From: Mustelus asterias
Lineage: Eukaryota
DNA length: 64,000 nucleotides
Reading direction: 5' to 3'
Assembly (NCBI RefSeq): GCF_964213995.1
Contig: NC_135808.1
Span: 33,542,001 to 33,606,000 of the forward strand
A program made the position numbers and the translations under genes. Below are positions 739 through 42,683 of the stretch, one piece after another (the stretch's first letter is position 1; each line of letters starts with the position of its first letter). Under the pieces are notes generated by a model, which saw nothing but the letters and a program-made list of their open reading frames with translations, did no database searches and had not been told where the DNA came from.

Positions 739-790
739 ATGTTGCTGATCCTTTTCCCCATCTCCCTGTGTTTTTCCTGGGTCTCTCCCG
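739..790 (+). CDS. Non-classical MHC class I heavy chain, exon 1 (signal peptide MLLILFPISLCFSWVSP)
   Basis: ATG at 739, 17 hydrophobic codons plus 1 nt, then strong donor CCG|GTAAGT at 790/791. Phase 1 matches the alpha1 acceptor (G+AT = Asp). Too short for the ORF track. Confidence 0.85.
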
Positions 791-2432: not shown

Positions 2433-2693
2433 ATAGTAATGCCTTTACTGTAATGTATTTGGCCACCTCTGGCACTACTGATTTACCTGAGTACGTTGGT
2501 GTAGGAATGATCAATGGGGTTCCAGTTGCCTATTATGACAGTGGTACCCAACAAATAGTCTCCCGACAGCAGTGGATGACGGATTCTTTTGATGCGGAGT
2601 ACTGGGAATATCTCACAAATCGAGGGAATAAACATTGTGCCATTGCAAAGGAGAACCTGAAGATGATAATGAAAAATACAAACCAGACATCTG
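2433..2693 (+). CDS. MHC class I heavy chain, exon 2 (alpha1 domain)
   Basis: Acceptor TTTGTTTTACAG|, 261 nt, donor CTG|GTAAGA. Translates (D)SNAFTVMYLATSGTTDLPEYVGVGMINGVPVAYYDS...QWM...EYWE...NQTS(G). The YYDS, WM, EYW and N86 glycosylation (NQT) hallmarks of class I alpha1 are present. Confidence 0.93.
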
Positions 2694-2842
2694 GTAAGAA
2701 CAGTGATACACAGTCTCTCCTTTGCCCTTTTACCTCCTGTCTTCTCACCATCTAAGGCCTCAAAGAATCATTCCAGGTGATAATGTGATTTACATATTTT
2801 TACATTTATTATACTGTATTCACTGCTCACAATGTGGTCTCA

Positions 2843-3190
2843 TAGAATCATAGAAATCCTACAGTGCAGAAAGAGGCCATTGCGCCCATCGAGTCTGCAC
2901 CGACCACAATCCCACTCAGGCCCTACCCCCATATCCCTACATATTTTACCCGCTAATCCCTCTGAACTACGCATCTCAGGACACTAAGGGGCAATTTTTA
3001 GCATGGCCAATCGACCTAACCTGCACATCTTTGGACTGTGGGAGGAAACCAGAGCACCCGGAGGAAACCCACGCAGACACGAGGAGAATGTGCAAACTCC
3101 ACACAGACAGTGACCCAAGCCAGGAATCGAGTCCAGGTCCCTGGAGCTGTGAAGCAGCAGTGCTAACCACTGTGCTACCATGCCGCCCAT
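2843..3190 (-). mobile_element. HE1-type V-SINE, full length
   Basis: Reverse complement of the HE1 consensus with (CATAGAAT)n tail. Confidence 0.9.
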
Positions 3191-3529
3191 TGGAGATCCC
3201 AAGCACAGACTGGGTGGTCATTTTTCAGAACACCTCCGTTCTGTCAATAAGTATAACCCTGAGCCTCCTGTTACTTGTCATTTAATTCTCCACCTTGCTC
3301 CAACTTCGACCTTTCTTTCCTTGGCCTGCTGCAGTGTTCCAATGAAGCTCAACTGAAGCTCAAGGAAAAATACCTCATCTTTTCATTATGTGCTTTACAA
3401 CCTTCCAAATACATGTTGAGTCCAAATTCAGTCTTTTGCCCCTCAACCTTTCCCTCCATTTCATTTATTAACTTATCTCTCAAGATTTTCTTGCATTTAC
3501 CTCTTTTGACAACATAATTCTTCCCATTC

Positions 3530-4720
3530 AAGCCTCGTTAATGATAATAGTAGGAAAAATTCGGGAATTACTACTAAAGGAGGGAACAGAAGAACTTCGA
3601 GAAATGGGAAATACAACAATGAATAGTTAGCATGAATTTCCAATGGGACAACCTTGCGTGGCTAACATTGTTGATCGTTTCAGGGAGATTGTGGAGACAG
3701 AGAGTGGACAATGGTAATGCAGTAGAGATAATTTATCTGGATTTTCAAAAGACCTTTGACATAGTGCCTCATAATAGATTAATGAATAAAAGTCAGAGAA
3801 TGTGGAGTCGGGAATAAGTGGCAGAATGTATTGTTAACTGTCTTCAAGAAAGAAAGAAGAGAGCAGGAACAAATGTTGGTTAGTGGCAGAATGTATGGGG
3901 AGTTGGTGGCTCATTGTTGGACTATCCAGAAACCCAAGGTAATAAACTAGGGGCCGGCATTCGAATCCCACCATGGTAAATGATTAAATTTGAATTCAAT
4001 AAATCTGGAATTAAAAGTCTCCTGAGGAGCATACAAAGCATTATGTACCATCTGGTTCACGAATGTCCTTTGGGGAAGGAAATCTGCATGAATGAATTTT
4101 TACCAAGTGGTGTTCCACAATGATCAGGCTGCTATTCATAGTTTGCATTAAAGATTGGAAATTAGGATTAAAGCACAATTTTGAAAATTGCAGATGGCAC
4201 CAAATTATAGGGAGGTGAGATGGGGTATTCAATACATGCTGGAGGGCATCAATAAATAGGCAAATAATTGGCAAATGGAGTTCAGCACAGATAATGTGAG
4301 GTAGTGCATTTTGGTAGAATTAGGGAAGTAACATTTTACTTGGAAGGTGTCTAAATTGGGTGTAAAAAGAAAGGGATCACAGAGTACAAATATGTTTATC
4401 ATTAAGAGTTGTGCCACAGGATACTATAAAAAAGAAATCAAAGTTCTAGGCTATATTTCTACAGAGATCAAATTGAAAAGGAGGGAAGTCATGCTATACT
4501 TGTATCAAACCTTGATTCGACCACACTTATTGTGTGTAATTCTGGTTGCCATATTATAAAAAGGATATAGAGGCACTAGGGCATTGGAGACAGTGCAGAA
4601 AAGATTTGCAAAGATAAAGCCAGAAATCAGTGGGTTATACATATACCAGTAAAGGATTGACAGGCTGTACCACTCTTCTCTTGCAAAAAAGAAGGCTCAT
4701 GGGATGACCGAACAGAGATC
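3530..4720 (+). mobile_element. Old degraded CR1 LINE fragments
   Basis: VDNGNAVEIIYLDFQKTFDIVPH and LYQTLIRPHL RT motifs, with many stops. Confidence 0.75.
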
Positions 4721-5569
4721 TTTCATCGAATCCTTATAATGCAGAAGGAGGCCATTTGGTCCATCGAGTCTGCATCGACTCTCAGATAGAGTATCCTACC
4801 CAGGCCTTCTCCCCCTCCCTATCCTCGTAACCCTTTTCCCTGTACTGTTTCACATCTTTAAAAATGAAAGCTTTTGATAGAGTGGATACTGCGAAATTGG
4901 AGGCGATATTACCATCATGTTGCGCCTGTTTCCGGGCACGAAAGCTTGGTAAAAACGGACGAGAGGCGAGTAGGGCAATCCGTGGCCGCCTCAGCACCAG
5001 TTCCCCCTTTACCAAGGCCCAAAAATAGCCTTTCAGGAATCCACCAAAAATGGGCATGATGGCCATTCAAACCTATTTGCATGCATTCCAATCCACTTAA
5101 CGGGCTGCACACCCAACTTTATTGGCACGTCCCCCTTTACTACTGCGTTCGCCAATCCGGAATTGGCCTGAAACAGACATGCTCCATAAAAGTCCAATTT
5201 GGACGCTCCATCCATGAGGGTTAGTGAGGAGGTAAGTGCCTAGCATCTGACGGCTCCATGCGTCCTTTCGTGGCTCCATTATGTTTTTTGGGTCGGTGGC
5301 AACTCTGCGAGTGTGTGGGGTTCGGGGGAGGGTGGGGTGGCTGTTGCTCAGCAGGGTGTCCAATGTCTGATTTGCAGCATGGACCCGGGTACCTGGGTCT
5401 CAGCACTGACCTCGGGACTTGTGGATGCTGCTGGGTCCTAATGCAGTCAGCACTCTTCCAGCTGAAAGATTGCACAAAGTCCTTGCGAATTGCACAGCAA
5501 GGCACTTTAGGGTTGCCGCAAGTTGAGCTATCTTCTCTCCTTCTAGCTGATTTCATTTACGCTATAGTT

Positions 5570-6480
5570 AATAGTTTGGGTGAATAATGGTCCCCCAGTA
5601 TCTTAGTTACTTCTTAATACATTTTGCTACCTGGTTTCTCAAGCTGGACCAGACTTTGGAGTAAATTGAACGTTTTACCGCCAATGGTACTAAGAAAAGC
5701 AGGGACTACAATATCCTCTGGAATCTTATTTGCCAATATATAACACTGAAATCTTTCTACATAAGATCTCCAATTCTTAGATTTTTCCTTGAATGAGCTA
5801 TTGGCATCAAAATTTCCTGCCATTCTTACTGGGTTACCGGGATCTAGGCAGTAATGTTTTCCAGGAGCTTGTCTTGATAATAAACAGCCCAGTTTTACTT
5901 TTCAACAGCTAGCTCTAGATTTTAATGCAATTCCAGGAATATCTGTTTTTCACTCTACCTCCATGCTTTACTTAAACTATGCACTTTGCAAGCTCTGCGT
6001 CCTGACCTCCTCGGATTGCCCGTATTTTGCTTTTTGGTGGGGACCTTTCTTTATGCTCCACTACCTTACTGGTCCAATGTCAGATGCAATCACTTACCTG
6101 CTGCTAATTCTACTCCAATTATCAGAAACATCGAAAGGGGATCGACCCTTCAATGAGTAAGTGCAATTCTAATTTTTCATTTCTTCTTTTTGTTAGAAGA
6201 AAATTTTTAATCTGCTCCTCATCACCAGTTTTGTTTTTATCTTGTTGTATATCTTGCACTCGTGAGGATAAAAGAAAGTGGAGTGTGTGGGTTGGTTGCA
6301 GTCAACAAGGCAGGTATATTGAGGTTCACTGTATGGAGGCATGGTCTAGACTGACTCAAAGTCCGCAAAGCAGCCGTTAACATCACGAATTACACACATG
6401 GCTAGATTCTTAAAGTGACAGCACAACAACACAACATCTACCCAAATAAATAAGTTACATTCCCTTCTCCTCTTGATCAT
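5570..6480 (-). mobile_element. Gypsy LTR retrotransposon 5' remnant (LTR, PBS, gag N-terminus)
   Basis: ORF 5614-5823 (NWRSYVERFQCYILANKI...AFLSTIGGKTFNLLQSLV) is Gypsy gag-like. A PBS-like TGGTGATGAGG lies on the minus strand near 6216-6226. Confidence 0.65.
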
Positions 6481-7136
6481 CAAGACTGGGACATACAAGA
6501 CAGGTTCTGAAAAGCAACCTCTTTTCACAGAATGGAGTTATTCACTGAAAATAAATTCTTTAATTTAAAATTTAGAAGAGTATGAGGTGATCTGATTGAA
6601 ACATGTAAGTTTCCCTTCGGGGTCTTCACAGGGTGGATGTGGAGAGAATACTTCCTCTTGTCAAAGAATCTAGAACCAGAGGGTCACTGTTTAAACATAA
6701 TGGTCACCCATTTAAAATGGAAATGAGGTGAATTTTTTCTCTCATAGTGTTGTGAGTCTTTGGAACAGAGATGAATAGATTCTTGTTAAGCAAGGATGTG
6801 ATAAGGTTATCAAGGGGAGGTGGGATGCAGATGTGAGGTGGCAATCAGATCAGCCTTGATATTAAATGCTAGGTAGGCTCGAGGGACTGAATGGCCCATT
6901 CCAGCTCCTTGTTCATAAGCTTATAAACTTCCTTCAACACCACACATTTGCTCAGTTTTACATTAATGGATGTCATTGTGAATTAACCAATAAAAAAAGA
7001 AGAATCTATTACTACGAAATGGATCCTACTGAGAGACCTATTGCTGAAACACTGAGCCCACAGAGAGATCTTTTACAATGATACTGAGCCTGCAGGGGGA
7101 TCTAATACTGTAAGACTGAATCCACACTGAGATATG

Positions 7137-9015
7137 GGGCGGAATTCTCCCAAAATATTTGTAAGGGCACAATCTTAGTGGCTTGTCCCAGCCAGTGAGA
7201 TTGCATGAGAGGCCAAAAATCTGGTTTGCACCTGGATTTTGACCTCCGAGAATCATACAAGCACTGTTTTAACTGCAAAGCTGATTTAAATATGAATGAC
7301 ATGTTTTTCATGGGCTCACTTGAACTTACCCTCTCGCGATCAGCGCAGACCAGATTTGATGGCCTCACCGATGGGATCAGAAGCCATTGAAGCCCCCACA
7401 TGGTCCGGGGCTTGGTCAGACAGTGCCCATGGAGCAGTGTCAGCTTAGCAATGCCCACTGGCCACCCTAGTACTGCCCACCGGGCACCGTAACTGCACCA
7501 TGGCTGTGACGAGGGATGGGGCCTAAGTGGGGCACATGCTGGGGAAGCCGCAGAGGGGAGTCTTAATGGGGACCCATCAGGAGGGTCCCAATGCCAGCGA
7601 CCCATGTTGCCATGTGGGGGGGGGGGGGGTTACAATGTCACCGATAATGGAGGGGGAAAGTTTGTTGGGGGGGGGGGGATGAGGCGTGGTTTGGGGATTA
7701 CAAAGAGGTCTCCCAGTTCAGTGGGAGATCAGGGCGCCTGCGCAATGACGGCCCAATCAGTCTAGAGCCGGCAAGCTTAAGCTCCTCACGGCCACTGGTG
7801 AGAATCGCACTCCTGTCTAGAAAAGTGACAGTGACACAAGCTTGCATTTTCAAGCTCAGCCAAAGAACAGGTCTGATACTCACCTGTTTTCTCGCTCTTT
7901 TGGCACTTCGAATATTTTTCGTAAGATCGTGGCTTAAGTGTCATAATAATGCAGTGATCCACGTCGGTCTCTCAGGCGTGCTCCACATTACAATCCTCCC
8001 ACACTCAGGCACTTTTTTGGAGAACTGTAAGTTTCACACCGATACTGGGTACTGGGATGGCTCGGGCCATTGAAGCCCGGACAGTTTTTTTTATTCATTC
8101 ATGGGACATGGGCATCGCTGGCTAGGCCAGCATTTATAGCCCATCCCTTGAGAAGCAGGTGGTGAGCCGTTTTCTTAAATCGCTGCAGTCTATGTGCTGT
8201 GGGTTGACCCACGCGGCCAGGCGGTGCCCATCGGTGCCCTTCGCCGGAGGTGCCCTTGGTGGGTTGCACCTGGCACACGGCACAGTGGTTAGAATTGCTG
8301 CCTCCCAGTCTCAAGTAAACGGGTTCGATTCCCAGCTTGGGTCACTGTCTGTGCGGAGACTGCATGTTCTCCCTATGTCTGCGTGGGTTTCCTCTGGGTG
8401 CTCTGGTTTCCTCCCACAGTCCAAAAAGCATGCTGGTTAGGTGAATTGGCCATGCTAAATTCTCCCTCAGTGTATCCATTCAGGCTCTGAGTGTGGCGAC
8501 TAGGGGATTTTCATAGTAACTTCATTGCAGTGTTAATGTTAGCCTACTTGTGACACTAATAAACAAAATAAATAAATAAACGGCTGTCCGGTGGCCACTA
8601 CTGGGCACCGCCAGCGTTGCCAGGTGGGCTCCACCTGGTGGGCACTGCCCAATGGGCACCACCTGATCATGCCCCTGACTATCTGGGGGTTTCAGTGGCC
8701 TCCGAGCTCCCTGGTGTGACCGTCGCACCAGGTCTCTGCTAGTGGAGACCAGTAGTGATTGCTGCCATTATCACGCTGCACCCGAAGGCCAGTGAATTCC
8801 ATGCACTGGATGCACGGCAATGCGTGTTTAAATGCTACTTTAAAAATGTTAATCAGATTCGCACCTTTTCTGGGTGCAATCCAGTTCACACCATCAGGAA
8901 GGGGTCAGAGGACTCACAAACTGTTTGGTGCCAAGTGTGAAACGGATTTTTAGTCCCGCATGCTGGTCTCCAGTACCGCTGCGACCTACCAACAGCGTAG
9001 CGAGGTCAGAGAATC
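7137..9015. mobile_element. Cluster of PIF/Harbinger-like non-autonomous elements with a nested SINE (8277-8580)
   Basis: GGGGCGGAATTCTCCC terminus and GC-rich interior. Segment ~7950-9015 matches the element at 38707-39670. Confidence 0.6.
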
Positions 9016-9019
9016 TATA

Positions 9020-10222
9020 GTGTTCAAGACCCAACCATCTTCAGCTGCTTCATTAATGACCTTCCTTCCATAATAAGGTCAGAAATGGGAACATTCACTG
9101 ATGACTGCACAATGTTCAGCATCATTCGTGACTTCTCAGACACAGAAGCAGTTCATGTCCAAATGCAGCAAGATCTGGACAATATACAAGGTTGGGTTGA
9201 CAAATGGCAAGAAACACCAATGGGCATCACGATGGCACAGTGGTTAGCACTGCTGCCTCACCATGCCAGGGACCCAGGTTCAATTCCAGCCTTGGGTGAC
9301 TGTCTGTGTGGAGTTTGCACATTCTCCCTGTGTCTGTGTGGGTTTCTTCTGGGTGCTCCGGTTCCTCCCACAGTCTAAAGATGTGCAGGTTAGGTGAATT
9401 GGCCATGCTAAATTGCCCCTTAGTGTCCAAAGATATGTAGGTTAGGGGATTGGTGGGGTAAATATGTGGGGTTATCGGGATAGGGTGAGGGGGGTCTTGG
9501 ATAAAATACTGTGTTGGAGAGTCGATGCAGACTCAATGGGCCAAATGGCCTCCTCCTGTACTGTGTAAGGATTCTATGACAAGTGTCAGACAATGCCCAA
9601 CTTCAGCAAGAGAGGATCTAACCATTGACATTTTATGTTAATAATGCTGAATCCCCCACTATCCACATCCTGGGAGTTACTATTGACCAGAACTGGACTA
9701 GCACTATAAATACTGTCAATACTTCGGCAGCAAATAACTTACCCCCTTATTCCCCAAAGCCTGTCCACCATCTGCAGGAATGCAATGGAATACTCTCCAC
9801 TTGCCTGGATGAGTGCAACTTCAACACCATCCAGGAAAACGTTGCCCAATTGATTGCTACCTCTTCACAAACATTCAATTTCTTCACCACCAATGAACAG
9901 TGACAGCAGTGTGCACAATCTACAAGATGCACTGTAAGGACTCACCAAAGTTCCTGAGCCAACACATTCCAACCCACGACCACTACCATATAGAAGATCA
10001 AGAGCAGCAAACACCACCACCTGGAGGTTCCCCTCCAAATTTATCACCATCCTGGTATATTGCCATTTCTTAACTGTAGCTGGGTCAAAATCCTGGAATT
10101 CTCTCCCTAATGGGTGTACCGCAAGAACTGCAATGGTTCAAGAAGGCAGCTCACTGCCACCTTCTGATGAGCAATAAATGCTGGCCGAGCCAGTGACGCC
10201 CACATCCCATAAATAAATGAAT
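9020..10222 (+). mobile_element. CR1-group LINE 3' fragment interrupted by an HE1 SINE (9222-9578)
   Basis: FTDDCTMFS RT motif. Same family and 3' end as the element at 32550-35778. Confidence 0.8.
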
Positions 10223-10404
10223 AATATACTGAGCTGATAGAGAGATTTATTTCTCTAAGACTGAACCCAGAGTGAGATCTATTACTGTAATACAGGACCC
10301 ACACAGAGATTTATCTTAAGGGGCAATTTAGCATGGCCAATCCTCTGTGCTTCCGTGCCGCCCTATTAATAGCTGATCTTTGATTCTCTGCTGATCTTTG
10401 ACAG

Positions 10405-10680
10405 GAATTCATGTTTTCCAATGGATTCGGTCTGTTGAGGTCACTGAAGACGGCTCCATTAAGAGATCGATGCGGTTTGGATTTGATGGAAAGGACTATA
10501 TTAGTTTAGAGCCAGACAGAATGAGATGGGTCACATCCAATCACATGGCAGTGAAGACCATGGAGAAATGGAATTCGGACGAATCCTGGAACAAGTATTG
10601 GAAATGGCAGTTGGAAGTAGAATTGATTGAACGTTTAAAACTACGTTTACACTTTGGAAAGGAATGTCTTAAAAGGAAAG
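10405..10680 (+). CDS. MHC class I heavy chain, exon 3 (alpha2 domain)
   Basis: Acceptor CTTTGACAG|, 276 nt (typical alpha2 exon length), donor AAG|GTATTC. Translates (G)IHVFQW...FGFDGKDYISL...W...TMEKW...LE...L...GKE with H93, Q96, D119-G120-K-D122-Y123, W133, T143, K146, W147. Confidence 0.93.
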
Positions 10681-10795: not shown

Positions 10796-11074
10796 TTCAG
10801 CCTGAAGTCTTCATCTCCAGAAGTGAACCCAATAGTCAGTATAAGCCGCTCACTCTCTCCTGCCTGGTTACTGGCTTTTATCCTGTAGACATCGAGGTGA
10901 CCTGGCTAAGGAATGGAGAGGTAATGTCTGAGACACTATCCTCGGGGGTTCGACCGAACCACGATGGGACCCATCAGATCCAGAAAGAGATTGAAATAAA
11001 TGCTGGGGATGAGGATCAATACTCCTGTCAAATTGAACACAGCAGCCTGGCAGAGCCCAAGCTCCACCAGTGGG
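10796..11074 (+). CDS. MHC class I heavy chain, exon 4 (alpha3, Ig C1-set)
   Basis: 115-nt intron, acceptor TTTCCCATTACAG|, 279 nt, donor TGGG|GTAAGG. LSCLVTGFYPVDIEVTW, RPNHDGTHQ and YSCQIEHSSL are canonical C1-set/class I motifs. Confidence 0.95.
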
Positions 11075-15589: not shown

Positions 15590-16825
15590 GAGCAGTCCCT
15601 CAGTACTGACCCTCTGACAGTGCAACACTACCTCAGTGCTGACCCTCTGACAGTGCAGCAGTCCCTCAGTACTGACCTTTTGAAACTGCAGCACTCCCTC
15701 AGTACTGACCCTCTGACAGTGCAGCACTCCCTCAGTACTGACCCTCTGACAGTGCAGCACTCCCTCAGTACTGACCCTCTGACAGTGCAGCACTCCCTCA
15801 GTACTGACCCTCTGACAGCGCAGCACTCCCTCAGTACTGACCCTCTGACAGTGCAGCACTCCTTCAGTACTGACCCTCTGACAGTGCGGCACTCCCTCAG
15901 CACTGACCCTCTGACAGCGCAGCACTCCTCAGTACTGACCCTCTGACAGTGCAGCACTCACTCAGTACTGACCCTCTGACAGTGCAGCACTCACTCAGTA
16001 CTGACCCTCTGACAGTGCAGCACTACCTCAGTACTGACCCTCTGACAGTGCAGCCCTCCCTCAGTACTGACCCCCTGACAGTGCAGCACTCACTCAGTAC
16101 TGACCCTCTGACAGTGCAGCACTCCCTCAGCACTGACCCTCTGACAGTGCAGCACTCACTCAGTACTGACCCTCTGACAGTGCAGCACTCCCTCAGTACT
16201 GACTCCATGACATGTAATGCTCCCTCAGTTATAATTGACTGGCAGTACAGCACTCCCTCACTACTGACCCCCTGACAGTGTAGTGCTCCCTTAGTACTGA
16301 CCCCTTGACTGTGTAGTGCTTCCTCAATTATAATCGTCCGGCAGTGCAACACTACCTCAGTACTGACCCCCTGACAGTGTATTGCTCCCTCAGTACTGAC
16401 CCCCTGACAGTGCAGTGCTCCCTCAGTACTGACCCTCTGACAGTGCAGCACTCCCTCAGTACTGACCCTCTGACAGTGCAGTGCTCCCTCAGCACTGACC
16501 CTCTGACAGTGCAGTGCTCCCTCAGCACTGACCCTCTGACAGTGCAGCACTCCCTCAGTACTGACACTCTGACAGTGCAGTGCTCCCTCAGCACTGACCC
16601 TCTGACAGTGCAGTGCTCCCTCAGTACTGACCCCCTGACAGTGCAGTGCTCCCTCAGTACTGACCCACTGACAGTGCAGTGCTCCCTCAGTACTGACCCT
16701 CTGACAGTGCAGCACTCCCTCAGCACTGACCCTCTGACAGTGCAGTGCTCCCTCAGTACTGACCCCCTGACAGTGCAGTGCTCCCTCAGCACTGACCCTC
16801 TGACAGTGCAGTGCTCCCTCAGTAC
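15590..16825. repeat. 33-bp minisatellite (CTGACAGTGCAGCACTCCCTCAGTACTGACCCT)n, about 37 units, in intron 4
   Basis: Directly visible tandem array. The unit is a multiple of 3, which generates the repetitive ORFs on both strands. Confidence 0.97.
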
Positions 16826-17154: not shown

Positions 17155-17274
17155 AAATCCCAGGAAACAGTTCGGGACACTTGCATCCTGGATTTATAAC
17201 AGTATTAGTGTTCACTGCACTGGCTGTTATATTTGGGATAGTCAGAATAATTATCTGGAAAAGACATCGAAGAG
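17155..17274 (+). CDS. MHC class I heavy chain, exon 5 (connecting peptide + transmembrane + basic stop-transfer)
   Basis: Acceptor TTTGTTTCAG|, 120 nt, donor GAG|GTAAGA, phase 1. Translates (E)IPGNSSGHLHPGFITVLVFTALAVIFGIVRIIIWKRHRR. Confidence 0.88.
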
Positions 17275-20455: not shown

Positions 20456-21181
20456 TGGGTCTATATTCTCTGGAGTTTTGAAGAATGAGGGGCAATCTCA
20501 TTGAAACATGCAGGGGCTTGACAGGGTAGACACAGAGGTTGTTTCCCCTGGCTGGAAAATCTAGAATATAGACCGGGTCGGAGGGACATATTCTCAGAAT
20601 AAGGGGATGTTCATTTAGGACTGAGATGAGGAGAGAATCTTTGGAATCATCTTCCCCAGAGAGTTATAGATGTTCCACCATTGAATACATTGAAGGGTGG
20701 AATAGATAGAATTATAGCCCATAGGAAATCAAAGGGAGAGCAGCGGAAAAGTGGTGTTGAAACCCAAGATCAGCCATGATCATATTAATTATGGAGTAGG
20801 CTCGACAGACCACATTGTCAACTCCCTATTCCTATTTCTTAAACTCTTTTTACAGTTTACAGTTTACCATGGTCTTTTTTCCCAGGGTGTATCACAAGCA
20901 GGGTAAAAAATATAGTTCAGTCGAAGATTCTCCAGAATTATCACATCTCAGTGGGTAACATGCAGTTAAAAAGTGTTTGCAATTAGTGCTCTTTGCTCTT
21001 GTCCATAGTAACAGATAAAACAGGAAATCCACAGCAACCATTTCATAGGAATTCTGGAAAAGGACATTTAATCGGTGAGATTCCAAGTTTTATAAAAATT
21101 TTAAATTGTTGTCTTATTGATGTCCACATTTTCACTTTTTCCAAACATCGTGCAATTGACTGTGTTTAATATTTTCATTAG

Positions 21182-21366
21182 ATTCAGCACAGCCATTTCT
21201 GGAGACCAACCTCGCTCACCATCTCCCAGAAACTATGGTTCATAATGTGGATCTGGAGCTAAGTGACTCCCATCCTCAGCTTAAACTGCAACCTTTTCAG
21301 ACAGGATCACAACCCGGAGCACACAATCCAGTGGAAGGTAACACAACCACAACTGAACAGGAATAG
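21182..21366 (+). CDS. Candidate terminal cytoplasmic-tail exon of the MHC class I gene
   Basis: Acceptor ATTTTCATTAG| in non-repetitive sequence. The phase-1 frame is open for 61 codons (DSAQPFLETNLAHHLPETMVHNVDLELSD...TEQE*). There is no homology support and alternative acceptors exist. Confidence 0.4.
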
Positions 21367-36885: not shown

Positions 36886-38706
36886 CTTTGGACTGCTTCA
36901 GTCTCTGAGGAATCTTGAATGGTGCTTTACATTGTCTAATATTAGTGAACATCCCCACTTCTGACCGAATGGATTTTATCAAGTGATTTGCTTTGAAACC
37001 TTAAGATATCGCTCGCTTCTCAATAAAACACCTAATTTTAAAATTTTAAAATTCAGTAAACATGATCACTTGTCCAGGGATCACAAAGTCCAATAACTGA
37101 ACACAAGCAACACAATTTGTAATCAACTATTTCATTATTTGAAGAAAACGCCTGAAACAATAAAATGAAAACGCCTTACGATGGAAATAACCTAGTACAA
37201 ATGTTAATGTTTAGCCTTTCTGCTACTACAGCTTTAGAAACCTGTTAGTAACTTTACTGACTGCTTTCTGTGACAAAGCTCTGAGATGACTATTGTAGAT
37301 TTCTTCTTCCAGCTTTGAGCTAGTTAAATCGACAGCCTCTTTCCCCCTCATGAATTCTGGTTATTACTTGTTTCTAAAATTAATTATAGATTTCCTTTGG
37401 ATATTGATATATATTGTGTTGCAAATATTTAGTTCACATTTCAGTTGGCGGGGGGGAGGCGTCAGGGGGAGGGGGAGTTTTCCGGCCATTCGTGCTGAGC
37501 GCCAAATTCTCCATCACAGCGACAGCGTGGCATGAATGGCCAATAAGATCGCACCCTGAATGTTTTAGAATATAACGCTTATTTTTAGGAATTAAAGGGT
37601 TAAAATTAAGATTAAATAGAAACATCAAGTTGAGAAATTGCTTATGCATTTCAAGTAAATGCAACTTAAACAAACTCGGAGTTGATAACAGCTAAAACCG
37701 AACATACGTTTATTTACAAGGTCAGCATTCGAAGTGAAAACACTAAATAATGGATGACCCATTTCTGGACTTGTTGGGAGAGCCAAAGTATCTATTGTTA
37801 TCTCTATAAAAGAAGTTAAAAATAGCAATTCTGAGAAAGAGGATTGCAAATCTCCCTTAGAGATAAAAATTATTCATATGGATTGCAGAATCAAAGAGTT
37901 GTACTGAAAGTAAAAGTATTTAGTTTGTACTTCTGTTTGAATATCTCAAACTATGCCATGTTGCCATGGTGATGGGCTGTGGGGGGTGAGAAGATTCCTT
38001 TGTTTAACTTATTTGCGTGTTTCTCTGGTCAGAAGCGAGCAGTTCAGTTTGGGAAGAACAGAGGCAGTTGTGTCGGCCTTATGTAGGCTACAACTCATTC
38101 AGTTTGGAAAGCCAAAGGAAATGAATGTCAGTCAGGCTGCACTTCAGCAGAGAAAATTCCAACTTTATTGCTCACCATGGGAATGCAGTGGAGGCTCAAG
38201 CTCAGTTTGGAATTCATATGATGAATGAAACTGCAAAAAATCGTAGTAAGAGAAAGAAATCTGCAGAGGTCCTCACAGTGACTTGTGATGGAAAGAGTTA
38301 GTTTGGAAGGCTGTTCGATGAGAAGGCAGATATATATCTGCCAGCAGTTAGGACAAGGAACTGAACAGTCCACTGTCATGAGGTCTTTAAAGAAAATTGG
38401 ACTTAACCAAAAGCCAATAAAAAGGTCTCCATGAATAATGTGCCTTGTAAAAGCTGAAATATTGAGGAGAATTAAAGTAAATTCCAGAGAACAGTGACAT
38501 ACCTCAGGGTTGTTCTGCCAGAAATGAATGAACCTTCAAAATTCCTGTAATATATAAGAGAGCTTGCAGAGGGAGGGGTGTATGGTGGTGCAGAGTACAA
38601 AATTGAATTAAATAGTTATAAATTTTACTGTTAAGATAATACTTTATTTGCTTATTTCATTTTACATACAATAAAGTTTGTTTTTGTATAGAAACTTGAA
38701 ATCTTG

Positions 38707-39670
38707 GAGAGGAATGCTCCCAAAAAGATTGTAAGTCTCATAACAGCGAGAACGATGGAATGATTTGCGCCGGTCTCTCAGGCACGCTCCACATCGCAAT
38801 CCTTCCACACTCAGTCACTTATTTGGGGAGATGGGAGGTTTGCATCAGTACTGACAGGGGGAGATTTAACACGTGGTGAGTTTGGCTTCTGTGCATTCAG
38901 ACACCATTTTGCGAGGGCAAACCTATCTCAGAGTGCACTGGGAGACCTCTCCTTCCCTCCACAGACATCAGGATGCAATGATCCCTCCCCCTCACCATCA
39001 TCGATGGCATGTTTTTCAACCCCCTGCCCGATGTAGGTCGCCGGTCGGGGCCCTCGCGATGGGTCCCCGTGCCCAATCCCCAGCATGCCCCCCCCCCCCG
39101 ATCAGGACCGCCTGCACAACCCCCCCCCCCCCCCCCCCAACCAACATTAAACCTCAACCCCGTCATGACTTCCACTCAGGCCCAACTCCTTGGCACTGAC
39201 CTGGCACACTATTGGTATCCAAATGGCACCGCCGGACTATCCGCTGGCCACCACCAGGCTATCTGGTGGCCACAGCTGGGCACCACGAGGTGGGCATGGC
39301 CTGTTGGGCACCACTCGGCCATTTCCCTGACCGCCTGGCGTCTTCAGTGGCCTCCAACACTCCCCACCCCCACCCCATGCCAGTGTGACCATCATGGTAG
39401 GTCTCTGCTCATGGAGACCAGTAGCGATTCTCGCCCAAAAGCCAGTGAATTCTGTGTGATGGGATTTAAATGGGCTTTGCATATTTAAATACTACTTTAC
39501 ATATGCTAATAACTCATGGCCATTCTGGGCCTGATCCAGTTCACACCATCAGGTAGGGGTCACGGGACTTGCAAACTATTTGGCGCTGGGTGTGAAACAG
39601 ATTTTTAGGCCCACACGTGATTCTCTGGAAGTGTGACTAATGCGCGGCAAGGTCGGAGAAACTCCCCCCC
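38707..39670. mobile_element. Harbinger-like MITE
   Basis: Imperfect TIRs (GGAATGCTCCC / GGAGAAACTCC), TTG on both flanks, and similarity to about 7950-9015. Confidence 0.65.
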
Positions 39671-40470
39671 TTGTGTTGTAATGCTGTCAGTTAATGACAG
39701 GGTGTGAAGATCTCTGTTCAAACATTAACGGTCTCAAACAGGATTGTAATAAATGATTGAACAATTAAATACTTATGTAACTTTAAATTAAAACAAAGAT
39801 TGAAAAAGAAAATAATTCAAATACGAAGTAGGTCAATCAGCATTTTAAATTGGGAAATACTTTGTCATATGTATAGGGAAAATTTCCAACTTCATTGGGG
39901 AGTTCCCATTGATAAATACTTGTTCAGGAGGCAGGGAGGGTCAAAATGGCAGAGCCCAATGGGCTCAAAACTGTAGTAGGAGGGTGAAGGAACTTCTCAG
40001 GTTCTGTCTTTGAAATTAGCTAGTTAATTGAACTCATTAATATTCACATTATATTTTTCCTCAATGTCTTTTCCAACCTTCTCCCAGGATAAGTTCCAAC
40101 TTGAAATGTTGTTTGCTGACTTTGCTGAGTATTCATCAGCAAACTCTCTGTTGCACTTGTAGTAAACCCATTTCCAAAAAGGTGTTTCAATGCTGGTATC
40201 AGCAGGAATATTCCAGTTACTGAATTGGTCATTGTGATCTCTGCTATGCTCATAACAAAATGATTCCCAGTTGGTGTCTTTAATCCCGGAAGGAACGTCA
40301 CCTCCAACATACACTGTACAATTCTTTGACGTGGCGAATTTTGGAGCAAAGTGCCGTCCATATTTGTTCAGCCTTCTGATCCGGTGATACTCAGCACTGT
40401 GCTGTGAGTACTCCTTGTTTTTACAATCACATAGGACACTACAGAAGGGATACTGCTTCCCATAGCCACC

Positions 40471-42683
40471 TTGATTTGATTTATTATTGTCACATGTATA
40501 CAGTGAAAAGTATGGTTTCTTGCGTGCTACACAGACAAAGCATACCGCTCATAGAGAAGGAAAGGAAAGAGTGCAGAATATAGTGTTACAGTCATTGCTA
40601 GGGTGTAGAGAAGGATCAACTTAATGCAAGGTAGGTCCATTCAAAAGTCTGATGGCAGCAGGGAAGAAGCTGTTCTTGAGCCAATTGGTACGTGATCTCA
40701 GACTTTTGTATCTTTTTCCTGACAGAAGAAGGTGGAAGAGAGATTATCCGGGGTGCGTGGGGTCCTTAGTTATGCTGGCTGCTTTGCTGAGGCCGCAGGA
40801 AGTGTAGGCAGAGTCAATGGATGCGAGGCTGGTTTGCGTGATGGACTTGGCTTCATTCACGACCCTTTAAATTTTCTTGTGATCTTGGGCAGAGCAGGAG
40901 CCATACCAAGCTGTGAAAGAATGCATTCTATGGTGCATCTGTAAAAGTTGGTGAGAGTTGTAGCTGACATGCCAAATTTTCTTAGTCTTCTGAGAAAGTA
41001 GGGGCATTGGTGGGCTTTCTTAACTATCATGTCAGCATGGAGGGACCAGGACAGGTTGTTGGTGGTCTGGACACCTAAAAACTTGAAGCTTTCGAGCATT
41101 TCTACTTCGTCCCCATTGATGTAGACAGGGGCATGTTCTCCACTATGTTTCCTGAAGTTGATGACTATTTTCTTCGTTTTGTTGACATTGAGGGAGAGAT
41201 TATTGTCGTTGCACGAGTTCACCAGATTCTCTATCTCATTCCTGCACTCTGTCTCATTGTTTGAGATCCGACTCACTATGATGGTGTCATCAGCAAACTT
41301 GAAATTCGAGTTGGAGGGGAATTTGGCCACACAGTCATAGGTGTATAGAGAGTATAGTAGGGGGCTGAGGTCCCACAGCCTTGTGGGGCACCGGTGTTGA
41401 GGACTATCATGGAGATCCAGTATCCTTACTGATTGCGGACTGTGGGTTAGGATGTTCAGGATCCAGTCACAGAGGGAGGGGCTGAGCCCCAGGCCACTGA
41501 GTTTGAAGATGAGTTTCATAGGAATAATGGTTGTTGAAAGCTAAGCTGTAGTCAATAAATAGGAGTCTGACATAGGTTTCTTTGTTATCTAGGTGTTCCA
41601 GGGTTGAGTGCAGAGCCAGGGAGATGCTGTCTGCTGTGGACCTGTTGCGGCGGTAGGCAAACTAGTGGATCCAGGCAATCTGGGAGGCTGGAATTGATTC
41701 GTGCCATGACTAACCTTTCAAAGCACTTCATAATGATGTATGTCAGAGCCACCGGCCAATAGTCATTAAAGCACGCTGCTTGGCTTTTCTTAGGTACCAG
41801 AATGATGGTTGTCTTCTTCAAGCAGGTAGGGACCTCCCATTGTTGTAAAAAGAGGTTGAAGATGTCGGCAAATACAACCGCCAGCTGATCCGTGCAGGAT
41901 CTGAGTGCTCGTCCAGGTACCCCATCCAGGCCAGTTGTGGGTTGACCTTTGAGAAGGCTGCTCTGACATCTGCAGGGTGACCTCAGATACAGGTTCATCC
42001 AGGGCTTCCAGGGTGGAGGGCATGCTCTCGCTGACCTCTTGCTCAAAACGAACATTGAATGCATTGAGCTCATCAGGGAGGGATGAGTTGAAGCGATTTT
42101 ATATGCCTTCATCTTGTAGTTTGTTATGTCTTGCAGATCTTGCCATAGTTGGCAGGGGTCCATGTGGCTAGCCTGGGACTCTAGCTTGGTCCTTTTGGCA
42201 TCTTTGATGGATCTCCTTAGATCATATCTAGTTTTCTTGTATAGGTCAGGGTCGCCTGACTTGAACATCTCAGACCTAGACTTCAACAAGCAGTGGATAT
42301 CCCTGTTCATTCATGGTTTCCGGTTGGGGAAAACACGGATTTGCTTCTTTGGCATGGTTTTCTGCATACTTACTAATGAAGTCAGTTACTGTAGTGGCAT
42401 ACTCGTTCAGGTAATTTACAGAGTTTTTAAATATTGACCAGTTCACTGACTCTAAGCAGTCTCATAGGAGATCATCCAATCCCTCAGACAAACATTGCAC
42501 GACTTTCTTTGACAGATTCTCCCATTTCATGTTTTGCTTGTAAGCCGGGAGCAGGAGCACAGCCTTGTGGTCTGATTTGCCAAAGTGTGGGTGGGCGATA
42601 GAGCGGTCGGCATATCTGATATTTATGTAGCAATGGTCTAGGATCTTTGGGCCTCTGGTGGAACAGGAGACGTGTTGGTGGTA
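40471..42683 (-). mobile_element. Rex1/Babar-clade LINE inserted into the GVIN pseudogene
   Basis: GKSDHKAVLLLPAYKQ, NDYWPVALT, KFADDT and LNVNKTK motifs; (CAAAT)n tail at about 40471-40480. Confidence 0.9.

What the first reader, a model, noticed from the sequence alone, without database searches (positions are those of the whole stretch)
2433..10680. Asymmetric groove: C-terminal anchor kept, N-terminal pocket replaced by arginines
Manual alignment to HLA numbering: Y7>V, Y159>Q, W167>R, Y171>R, position 99 = R, and 84 = N. Y59, Y123, T143, K146 and W147 are retained. The alpha2 helix and floor are aromatic-rich (W97, W152, Y155, W156, W158). Inference: the ligand could be anchored at the F-pocket end with an open or cationic A-pocket suited to an anionic (e.g. 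phosphorylated or acylated microbial) ligand, a binding mode unlike classical class I.
Basis: partly seen in the sequence, partly recalled or inferred. Interest (0 to 1): 0.7.

Follow-up and report, generated by a model that had tools for sequence, protein, structure and literature searches.

The report
Conserved arginine-rich shark MHC class I
This is an intact shark non-classical MHC class I gene whose groove has lost the residues that normally hold a peptide's start and carries four arginines unchanged in eleven shark species, so it likely binds one conserved short or acidic ligand by its carboxyl end rather than ordinary peptides.

Summary
The residue calls are right: V7, Y59, N84, R99, Y123, T143, K146, W147, Q159, R167, R171. 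The gene is an intact 7-exon shark class Ib gene, most likely of the multicopy UEA (UCA-related) family, and the intact class I gene nearest beta2-microglobulin among those found. (1) The alpha2 disulfide is gone (C101V, C164L, G100S), as in the whole family. (2) There is a fourth arginine, R66. (3) Acids D56, E58 and E163 are conserved along with the arginines. R99+R167+R171 occur in 11/11 orthologues and 6/6 sister genes but 1/56 other family members (a gene-conversion chimera); groove positions are more invariant than the rest (35/44 vs 81/135). So this is a conserved subclade inside a fast-evolving family. The aromatic floor and T143/K146/W147 are family traits. Best reading: the A pocket is rebuilt as an arginine-acid plug or roof, the ligand is held at the F end, and R99 is the likely free charge. 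An open cationic pocket for a phosphorylated microbial ligand is possible but unshown. F-anchored binding without the A pocket is known (HLA-F, Mamu-B*098, YF1). The key UEA paper was not readable, so prior description cannot be excluded.

The parts
739..790 (+). exon 1, leader peptide
   Evidence: gene model translates exactly to P0003
2433..2693 (+). exon 2, alpha1 domain: V7 (2450), Y59 (2600), L63 (2612), R66 (2621), C71 (2636), N84 (2675), N86 glycan site
10405..10680 (+). exon 3, alpha2 domain: R99 (10428), V101 (10434), Q159 (10608), E163 (10620), L164 (10623), R167 (10632), R171 (10644); T143, K146, W147 kept; no C101-C164 disulfide
10796..11074 (+). exon 4, alpha3 Ig C1 domain with both cysteines
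17155..17274 (+). exon 5, connecting peptide and transmembrane helix
21009..21074 (+). exon 6, cytoplasmic tail
21182..21366 (+). exon 7, cytoplasmic tail to stop; the tail of about 85 residues has no YxxPhi or acidic dileucine motif

Best explanation
It is an intact, conserved shark class Ib heavy chain, most likely of the UEA family, whose A pocket is predicted to be rebuilt as an arginine-acid plug so that it likely binds one conserved ligand by its carboxyl end in the F pocket. Shown: gene, residues, conservation, class I fold. Inferred from equivalent positions in solved structures: R167 and R66 pair with E163 (within the helix and across the groove), R171 with D56 or E58; the loss of G100, C101, C164 and W167 removes the module that positions the A-end wall; a free peptide amino group can no longer be held. 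T143, K146, W147 and N77 would hold a terminal carboxylate. The middle of the groove is crowded with aromatic residues, so the ligand would be short or would leave the groove before the A pocket, as in HLA-F. R99 on the floor has no evident acidic partner (E63 is L) and would bind an acidic group of the ligand. Pairing with beta2-microglobulin is likely (Q96, D119, G120, D122 kept) but untested.
For: R99+R167+R171 in 11/11 orthologues, 6/6 sister genes, 1/56 other members; these form a clade with support 100/99 that includes Heptranchias. D56, E58, E163 are invariant in the 11 orthologues, and E/D163 is in 17/17 clade members. Groove positions invariant 35/44, other alpha1-alpha2 81/135, alpha3 56/93; Fisher p 0.019 and 0.033. 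Middle-zone side-chain volume 2550 against 2269, 2281 and 2438 cubic angstroms in the UAA-like, UDA and UGA genes. AlphaFold alpha1-alpha2 model pLDDT 91.9, one unbroken strand over positions 93-103, so 97 and 99 alternate with Q96. Precedents read: Arg167 occluding in FcRn and bridging to Glu63 in M10.5; Arg66-Glu163 roof; G100/C101-C164 lift position 167; blocked A pocket in HLA-F; F-anchored ligands with an empty A pocket.
Against: No coordinates were available, so no side-chain position, salt bridge or electrostatic map was computed. T143/K146/W147 are family-wide (36/56) and are partly lost in sister genes (I143 with N146 or E146), so they may be inherited and not show ligand use here. 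R84 is lost (N, S or G). Outward-facing helix positions are also conserved (16/24), which fits receptor binding as well. The groove list is recalled, and the p values ignore relatedness. Four arginines against three nearby acids could also leave a real cationic pocket.
Confidence: 0.45

Rival explanations
1. Open cationic pocket, MR1-like: R66, R99, R167, R171 and H70 with the aromatic floor form a cradle for a small phosphorylated or carboxylated microbial metabolite, presented to invariant T cells.
For: Net +3 at A-end positions; small G24, A34, G67, V7 give a roomy B zone (1489 against 1689-1792); near-invariant groove in one gene per species; MR1 entries tie with classical class I in the fold search.
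Against: Acids D56, E58, E163 are conserved with the arginines; Arg167 occludes or salt-bridges in known structures; the MR1 tie reflects the shared fold only; the F-end peptide anchors are kept.
Confidence: 0.2
2. No groove ligand: a closed or empty platform that binds a conserved protein partner, like FcRn, HFE or M10.
For: Very crowded middle zone; R167 shared with FcRn and M10.5; HFE ties for the top fold match (Z 23.0, rmsd 2.5); helix-top positions conserved 16/24; long motif-free tail.
Against: Groove positions are the most conserved class; open-groove chains fit the model as well or better (UGA rmsd 2.0, ZAG 2.0, classical 2.0-2.3; FcRn Z 20.0, rmsd 2.9), although a predicted backbone is weak evidence on groove width.
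Confidence: 0.2
3. N-acylated lipopeptide presenter like chicken YF1 or Mamu-B*098: acyl chain under an R66-E163 roof, short peptide anchored in the F pocket.
For: R66 and E163 invariant, the same pair that roofs Mamu-B*098; small hydrophobic B-zone residues; this mode needs no A pocket.
Against: Y9 is invariant in the orthologues, and Tyr9 was shown to hinder the myristoyl chain; R99 puts a charge on that floor; mean hydropathy of the B zone is only 0.35.
Confidence: 0.15

Closest known systems
Shark UEA nonclassical class I family (Almeida et al. 2021; paper not held, description and recall)
   Same: Multicopy shark family next to single-copy UDA, between beta2m/brd2 and slc39a7; altered peptide-terminus residues.
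   Different: This gene lies 0.75 Mb outside the main cluster, is one gene per species and nearly invariant, and has a cationic A end, not a hydrophobic one.
Dogfish UCA and the nurse-shark sequence labelled UCA in the supplement of PMC10751288
   Same: Both lack C101 and C164 and have W97 with K or R at 99 (by eye); the nurse-shark sequence is of this family.
   Different: Neither has R167 or R171.
HLA-F
   Same: A pocket blocked, ligand not held by its N-terminus.
   Different: HLA-F keeps the alpha2 disulfide and blocks the pocket with other residues (recalled: W62).
Mamu-B*098, HLA-A*24:02 with lipopeptide, chicken YF1*7.1
   Same: F-end anchoring, unused A pocket, R/K66 roof.
   Different: The Mamu and HLA molecules need Ser9 or Gly9; this gene has Tyr9 and R99.
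FcRn and mouse M10.5
   Same: Arg167; M10.5 also lost Y7 and Y171.
   Different: M10.5 lost the F-end anchors, which this gene keeps; FcRn fits the model less well.
MR1 and teleost Z lineage
   Same: Strongly conserved groove implying one conserved ligand (Z lineage).
   Different: Z keeps the peptide anchors; MR1's Schiff-base lysine (recalled) has no counterpart shown here; no orthology is implied.

Membership tests
MHC class I heavy chain | leader, alpha1, alpha2, alpha3, TM exons; MHC_I plus C1-set domains; platform fold | tested here: met
classical class Ia (UAA) | Y7, Y59, R/Y84, T143, K146, W147, Y159, Y171 conserved (list read) | tested here: not met
   4 of 8 kept: Y59, T143, K146, W147
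classical class Ia (UAA) | C101-C164 disulfide | tested here: not met
   V101, L164
shark UDA | single copy, peptide anchors kept | tested here: not met
   UDA is a separate gene at C8:32.28 Mb, 28-32% identical in alpha1/alpha2
shark UFA/UGA (CD1-like) | sequence lineage of 8GM8/9CH4 | tested here: not met
   17% and 28% identity in the platform; UGA is a separate gene at C8:31.05 Mb
shark UEA | multicopy family | tested here: met
   17 full alpha2 exons at 62-100% identity in this genome
shark UEA | in the class Ib region with UDA, between brd2/beta2m and slc39a7 | tested here: met
   ZIP 26.76 Mb, UDA 32.28, family 32.31-32.80, this gene 33.55, beta2m-type exon 33.795, bromodomain 33.86 Mb; brd2 and slc39a7 identified by domain and position only
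shark UEA | sharks only, not rays or chimaeras (recalled) | tested here: inconclusive
   all named hits are sharks (76 of 76, 82 of 82), but these searches see only word-sharing candidates
shark UEA | groups with sequences named UEA; which of three sublineages (recalled) | not testable with these tools
   no sequence labelled UEA was returned; paper not held
MR1-like metabolite presenter | binds a small microbial ligand in the A' pocket | not testable with these tools
   needs ligand elution or structure
N-myristoyl lipopeptide presenters (Mamu-B*098 type) | small residue at position 9 | tested here: not met
   Y9 in 11 of 11 orthologues; requirement read
N-myristoyl lipopeptide presenters (Mamu-B*098 type) | R66-E163 pair | tested here: met
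   residues present in 11 of 11; the contact itself was not computed

The most novel reading that the evidence does not exclude
Sharks have kept, since before hexanchiform and galeomorph sharks split, a disulfide-less class I molecule with a poly-arginine pocket that presents one conserved anionic microbial or stress ligand to invariant T cells or NK-type receptors: an independent shark counterpart of MR1, sitting next to beta2-microglobulin inside an otherwise fast-evolving family.
Probability: 0.2. Interest if true: 0.75.

Novelty: new variant of a known kind. Interest (0 to 1): 0.45.

Why it matters
Shark class Ib lineages are described as of unknown function. One member of a birth-and-death family that has stayed nearly unchanged in its groove across 11 species is the best candidate for a defined ligand, and the test is direct: express, refold, elute, crystallise. 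A structure would also show how a class I platform folds without the alpha2 disulfide and without W167/Y171. If the arginines prove to be only a plug, it is a tidy structural variant of modest interest.

Tried and rejected
Register shift or frameshift artefact: rejected. Pseudogene: rejected for this copy; frame and splice sites are intact. UDA, UGA, UFA, UBA or UAA membership: rejected. The table is off by one for positions 114-150; one search corrects it, and only 95-101 and 152-171 were used. The gene at C8:41.59 Mb was dropped from the groove comparison because its alpha1 frame breaks. Expression: no RNA holder listed; contigs of 4 of the 23 listed runs covered family exons at the same splice sites but not 10630-10680 and look like paralogues from other species, so they say nothing on this gene. 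Side-chain geometry and electrostatics: the folding tool returns no coordinates. The heavy chain plus beta2m fold was not available. Fold searches do not separate classical class I, MR1, YF1, HFE, ZAG and UGA. Earlier findings of the scan: none. Papers not held: Almeida 2020, Almeida 2021, Dulberger 2017. Searches listed no paper that describes this subclade; that is weak, as the main paper and its supplements could not be seen and may show it as one of the UEA sublineages.

Full report
What is there. The interval holds the alpha1 (2433-2693) and alpha2 (10405-10680) exons of an MHC class I heavy-chain gene. Seven exons (739-790, 2433-2693, 10405-10680, 10796-11074, 17155-17274, 21009-21074, 21182-21366) have AG/GT ends and translate exactly to P0003, 412 residues, which NCBI lists as XP_078073800.1 of Mustelus asterias. 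Pfam gives MHC_I and C1-set. No other class I exon lies in the window.

Observation check. Alpha2 aligns without gaps to solved non-mammalian class I chains, and a published alignment with HLA-A2 and a nurse-shark family member gives the same register. The AlphaFold model of alpha1-alpha2 (pLDDT 91.9, pTM 0.85) has an unbroken strand over positions 93-103 and the usual two helices, so by homology 97 and 99 point into the groove and 167 and 171 lie at the A end. The tool gave no coordinates, so orientation is inferred, not measured.

Family. The genome holds 78 alpha2 matches, all on contig C8; 17 full exons are 62-100% identical to this one, 14 of them at 32.31-32.80 Mb. Next to that cluster lie UDA (32.28 Mb) and UGA (31.05 Mb), identified by eye against the labelled sequences in the supplement of PMC10751288 and against 9CH4. 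On the other side of this gene lie a beta2m-type exon (33.795 Mb) and a bromodomain gene (33.86 Mb); a ZIP gene lies at 26.76 Mb. PMC10751288 places multicopy UEA with single-copy UDA between brd2/beta2m and slc39a7. A nurse-shark sequence labelled UCA in its supplement is plainly of this family, and dogfish UCA also lacks both alpha2 cysteines. I recall that true UCA is confined to dogfish and that its relative in other sharks was named UEA. The family is therefore most likely UEA; no sequence labelled UEA was available to prove it.

Family traits versus traits of this gene. C101 is absent in 74 of 74 aligned hits (76 hits, 2 unaligned); C164 is present in 7. W147 is universal, T143-K146-W147 occurs in 36 of 56 other members, R99 in 26 of 56, W97 in 44 of 56. 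By contrast R99+R167+R171 occur together in 11 of 11 orthologues (one per species: Mustelus, two Scyliorhinus, Carcharodon, Cetorhinus, Stegostoma, Rhincodon, two Chiloscyllium, Hemiscyllium, Heterodontus), 6 of 6 sister genes, and 1 of 56 others; 27 of the 100 aligned proteins were dropped as isoforms or duplicates. A further Rhincodon sister gene has the triad, and two Pristiophorus members do not. The triad marks a clade with support 100/99 that includes Heptranchias; the orthologues, which add R66, form a clade with 98/95 (80 rows). The one exception, P0004 at 32.46 Mb, is a chimera: 95.6-97.7% nucleotide identity to this gene from the alpha2 exon through alpha3 but 70% in alpha1, and its two domains fall in different clades. 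In this genome R167+R171 are in 3 of 17 alpha2 exons: this gene, the chimera and the sister at 40.14 Mb. So the arginines vary among paralogues and are fixed among orthologues.

Conservation pattern. Orthologues are 84-92% identical in alpha1-alpha2. Invariant across 11 species: 35 of 44 groove positions (list recalled from HLA-A2), 81 of 135 other platform positions, 56 of 93 alpha3 positions; Fisher p 0.019 and 0.033, without correction for relatedness. Outward-facing helix positions: 16 of 24. This resembles the teleost Z lineage, where a conserved groove is taken to mean a conserved ligand.

Groove chemistry. A-end positions carry net +3 (R66, R99, R167, R171, E163), against -1, 0 and -1 in the UAA-like, UDA and UGA genes and -1 to +2 in five other family members; the middle zone is bulky (2550 against 2269-2438 cubic angstroms; 2256-2593 within the family); the B zone is small-walled. 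The acids matter. E/D163 accompanies R167 in 17 of 17 clade members against E in 9 and of 56 others, and D56 and E58 are invariant in the orthologues. In solved structures Arg167 partly occludes the A-B pocket of FcRn and bridges to Glu63 in M10.5 (PMC1174912); Arg66-Glu163 roofs Mamu-B*098 (PMC12212280); the G100 irregularity and the C101-C164 pair lift position 167 to block the groove (PMC8236899). All of G100, C101, C164 and W167 are changed here.

Mechanism. Best reading (0.45): the A end is an arginine-acid plug or roof that cannot take a free amino terminus; the ligand is held by its carboxylate at T143/K146/W147/N77, is short or leaves the groove early, and meets R99 with an acidic group. 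Rivals: an open cationic cradle for an anionic metabolite (0.2); a ligand-free platform for a protein partner (0.2); N-acyl lipopeptides (0.15), weakened because Tyr9 hinders the acyl chain (PMC9243169). Fold searches do not decide: UGA Z 23.1 (rmsd 2.0, 177 aligned), HFE 23.0 (2.5, 176), ZAG 22.4 (2.0, 174), classical 21.8-22.0 (2.0-2.3), FcRn 20.0 (2.9, 172), UFA 17.8 (3.0, 173); class I, MR1 and YF1 tie for the whole chain. Pairing with beta2m was not tested; the contact residues Q96, D119, G120 and D122 (recalled as such) are kept, and position 115 is R in most of the family.

Results against my reading.

Novelty. The family, and probably its lack of the disulfide, are known. F-anchored binding with an unused A pocket is known (HLA-F, PMC7590165; lipopeptide presenters). 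What I did not find in print is this conserved, arginine-marked gene beside beta2m, but Almeida et al. 2021 and its supplements were not readable and may cover it. In the white-shark gene table two unlabelled genes (LOC121291667, LOC121291668) sit next to B2M in the matching place and orientation; that they are this gene and its neighbour is inference.

Papers seen: PMC10751288 (passages; supplement parts 4, 97, 98 and term searches), PMC12212280 (passages, section 11), PMC12562908, PMC9586880, PMC9243169, PMC4364491, PMC1174912, PMC7590165, PMC8236899 (passages only). Almeida 2020, Almeida 2021, Dulberger 2017: nothing seen, recalled only.

Verdict: observation confirmed, interpretation partly supported, new variant of a known kind, interest 0.45.

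Noticed in passing
G000:C8:33.611-33.625 Mb (L061, L062), just past the window end: Relic duplicate of this gene: leader, alpha1 (74% identical) and tail exons, but no alpha2, alpha3 or TM exon in 33.61-33.64 Mb.
   Followed up: partly
G000:C8:32.457-32.467 Mb (L002, L035; P0004): Chimeric paralogue: alpha2-alpha3 recently copied from this gene, alpha1 from another clade.
   Followed up: yes
G000:C8:21.6-24.8 Mb: A cluster of about 50 class I alpha2 exons that keep C101/C164 in those examined, with repeated blocks of identical scores; probably UBA, possibly with assembly duplications.
   Followed up: no
L070 (C8:41.59 Mb) and L064 (C8:42.40 Mb): Two UAA-like genes; in the first the alpha1 frame breaks after about 65 codons, the second has E59 and W63 in alpha1.
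   Followed up: no
window 15591-16825: 33-bp minisatellite, 37.5 copies, 88% matches, in intron 4.
   Followed up: no
window 38128-40548: Open frames of 135 and 174 codons without a Pfam match; the second recalls the C-terminus of very large interferon-inducible GTPases (recalled, untested), probably a broken gene.
   Followed up: partly
window 2636 (C71) and alpha2 position 178: Unpaired C71 is invariant in 11 orthologues; C178 is particular to this species and its chimera among them. Possible dimer or ligand-adduct site, untested.
   Followed up: no
G000:C8:3.66 Mb (L014, L045): One family member lies about 29 Mb from the cluster.
   Followed up: no
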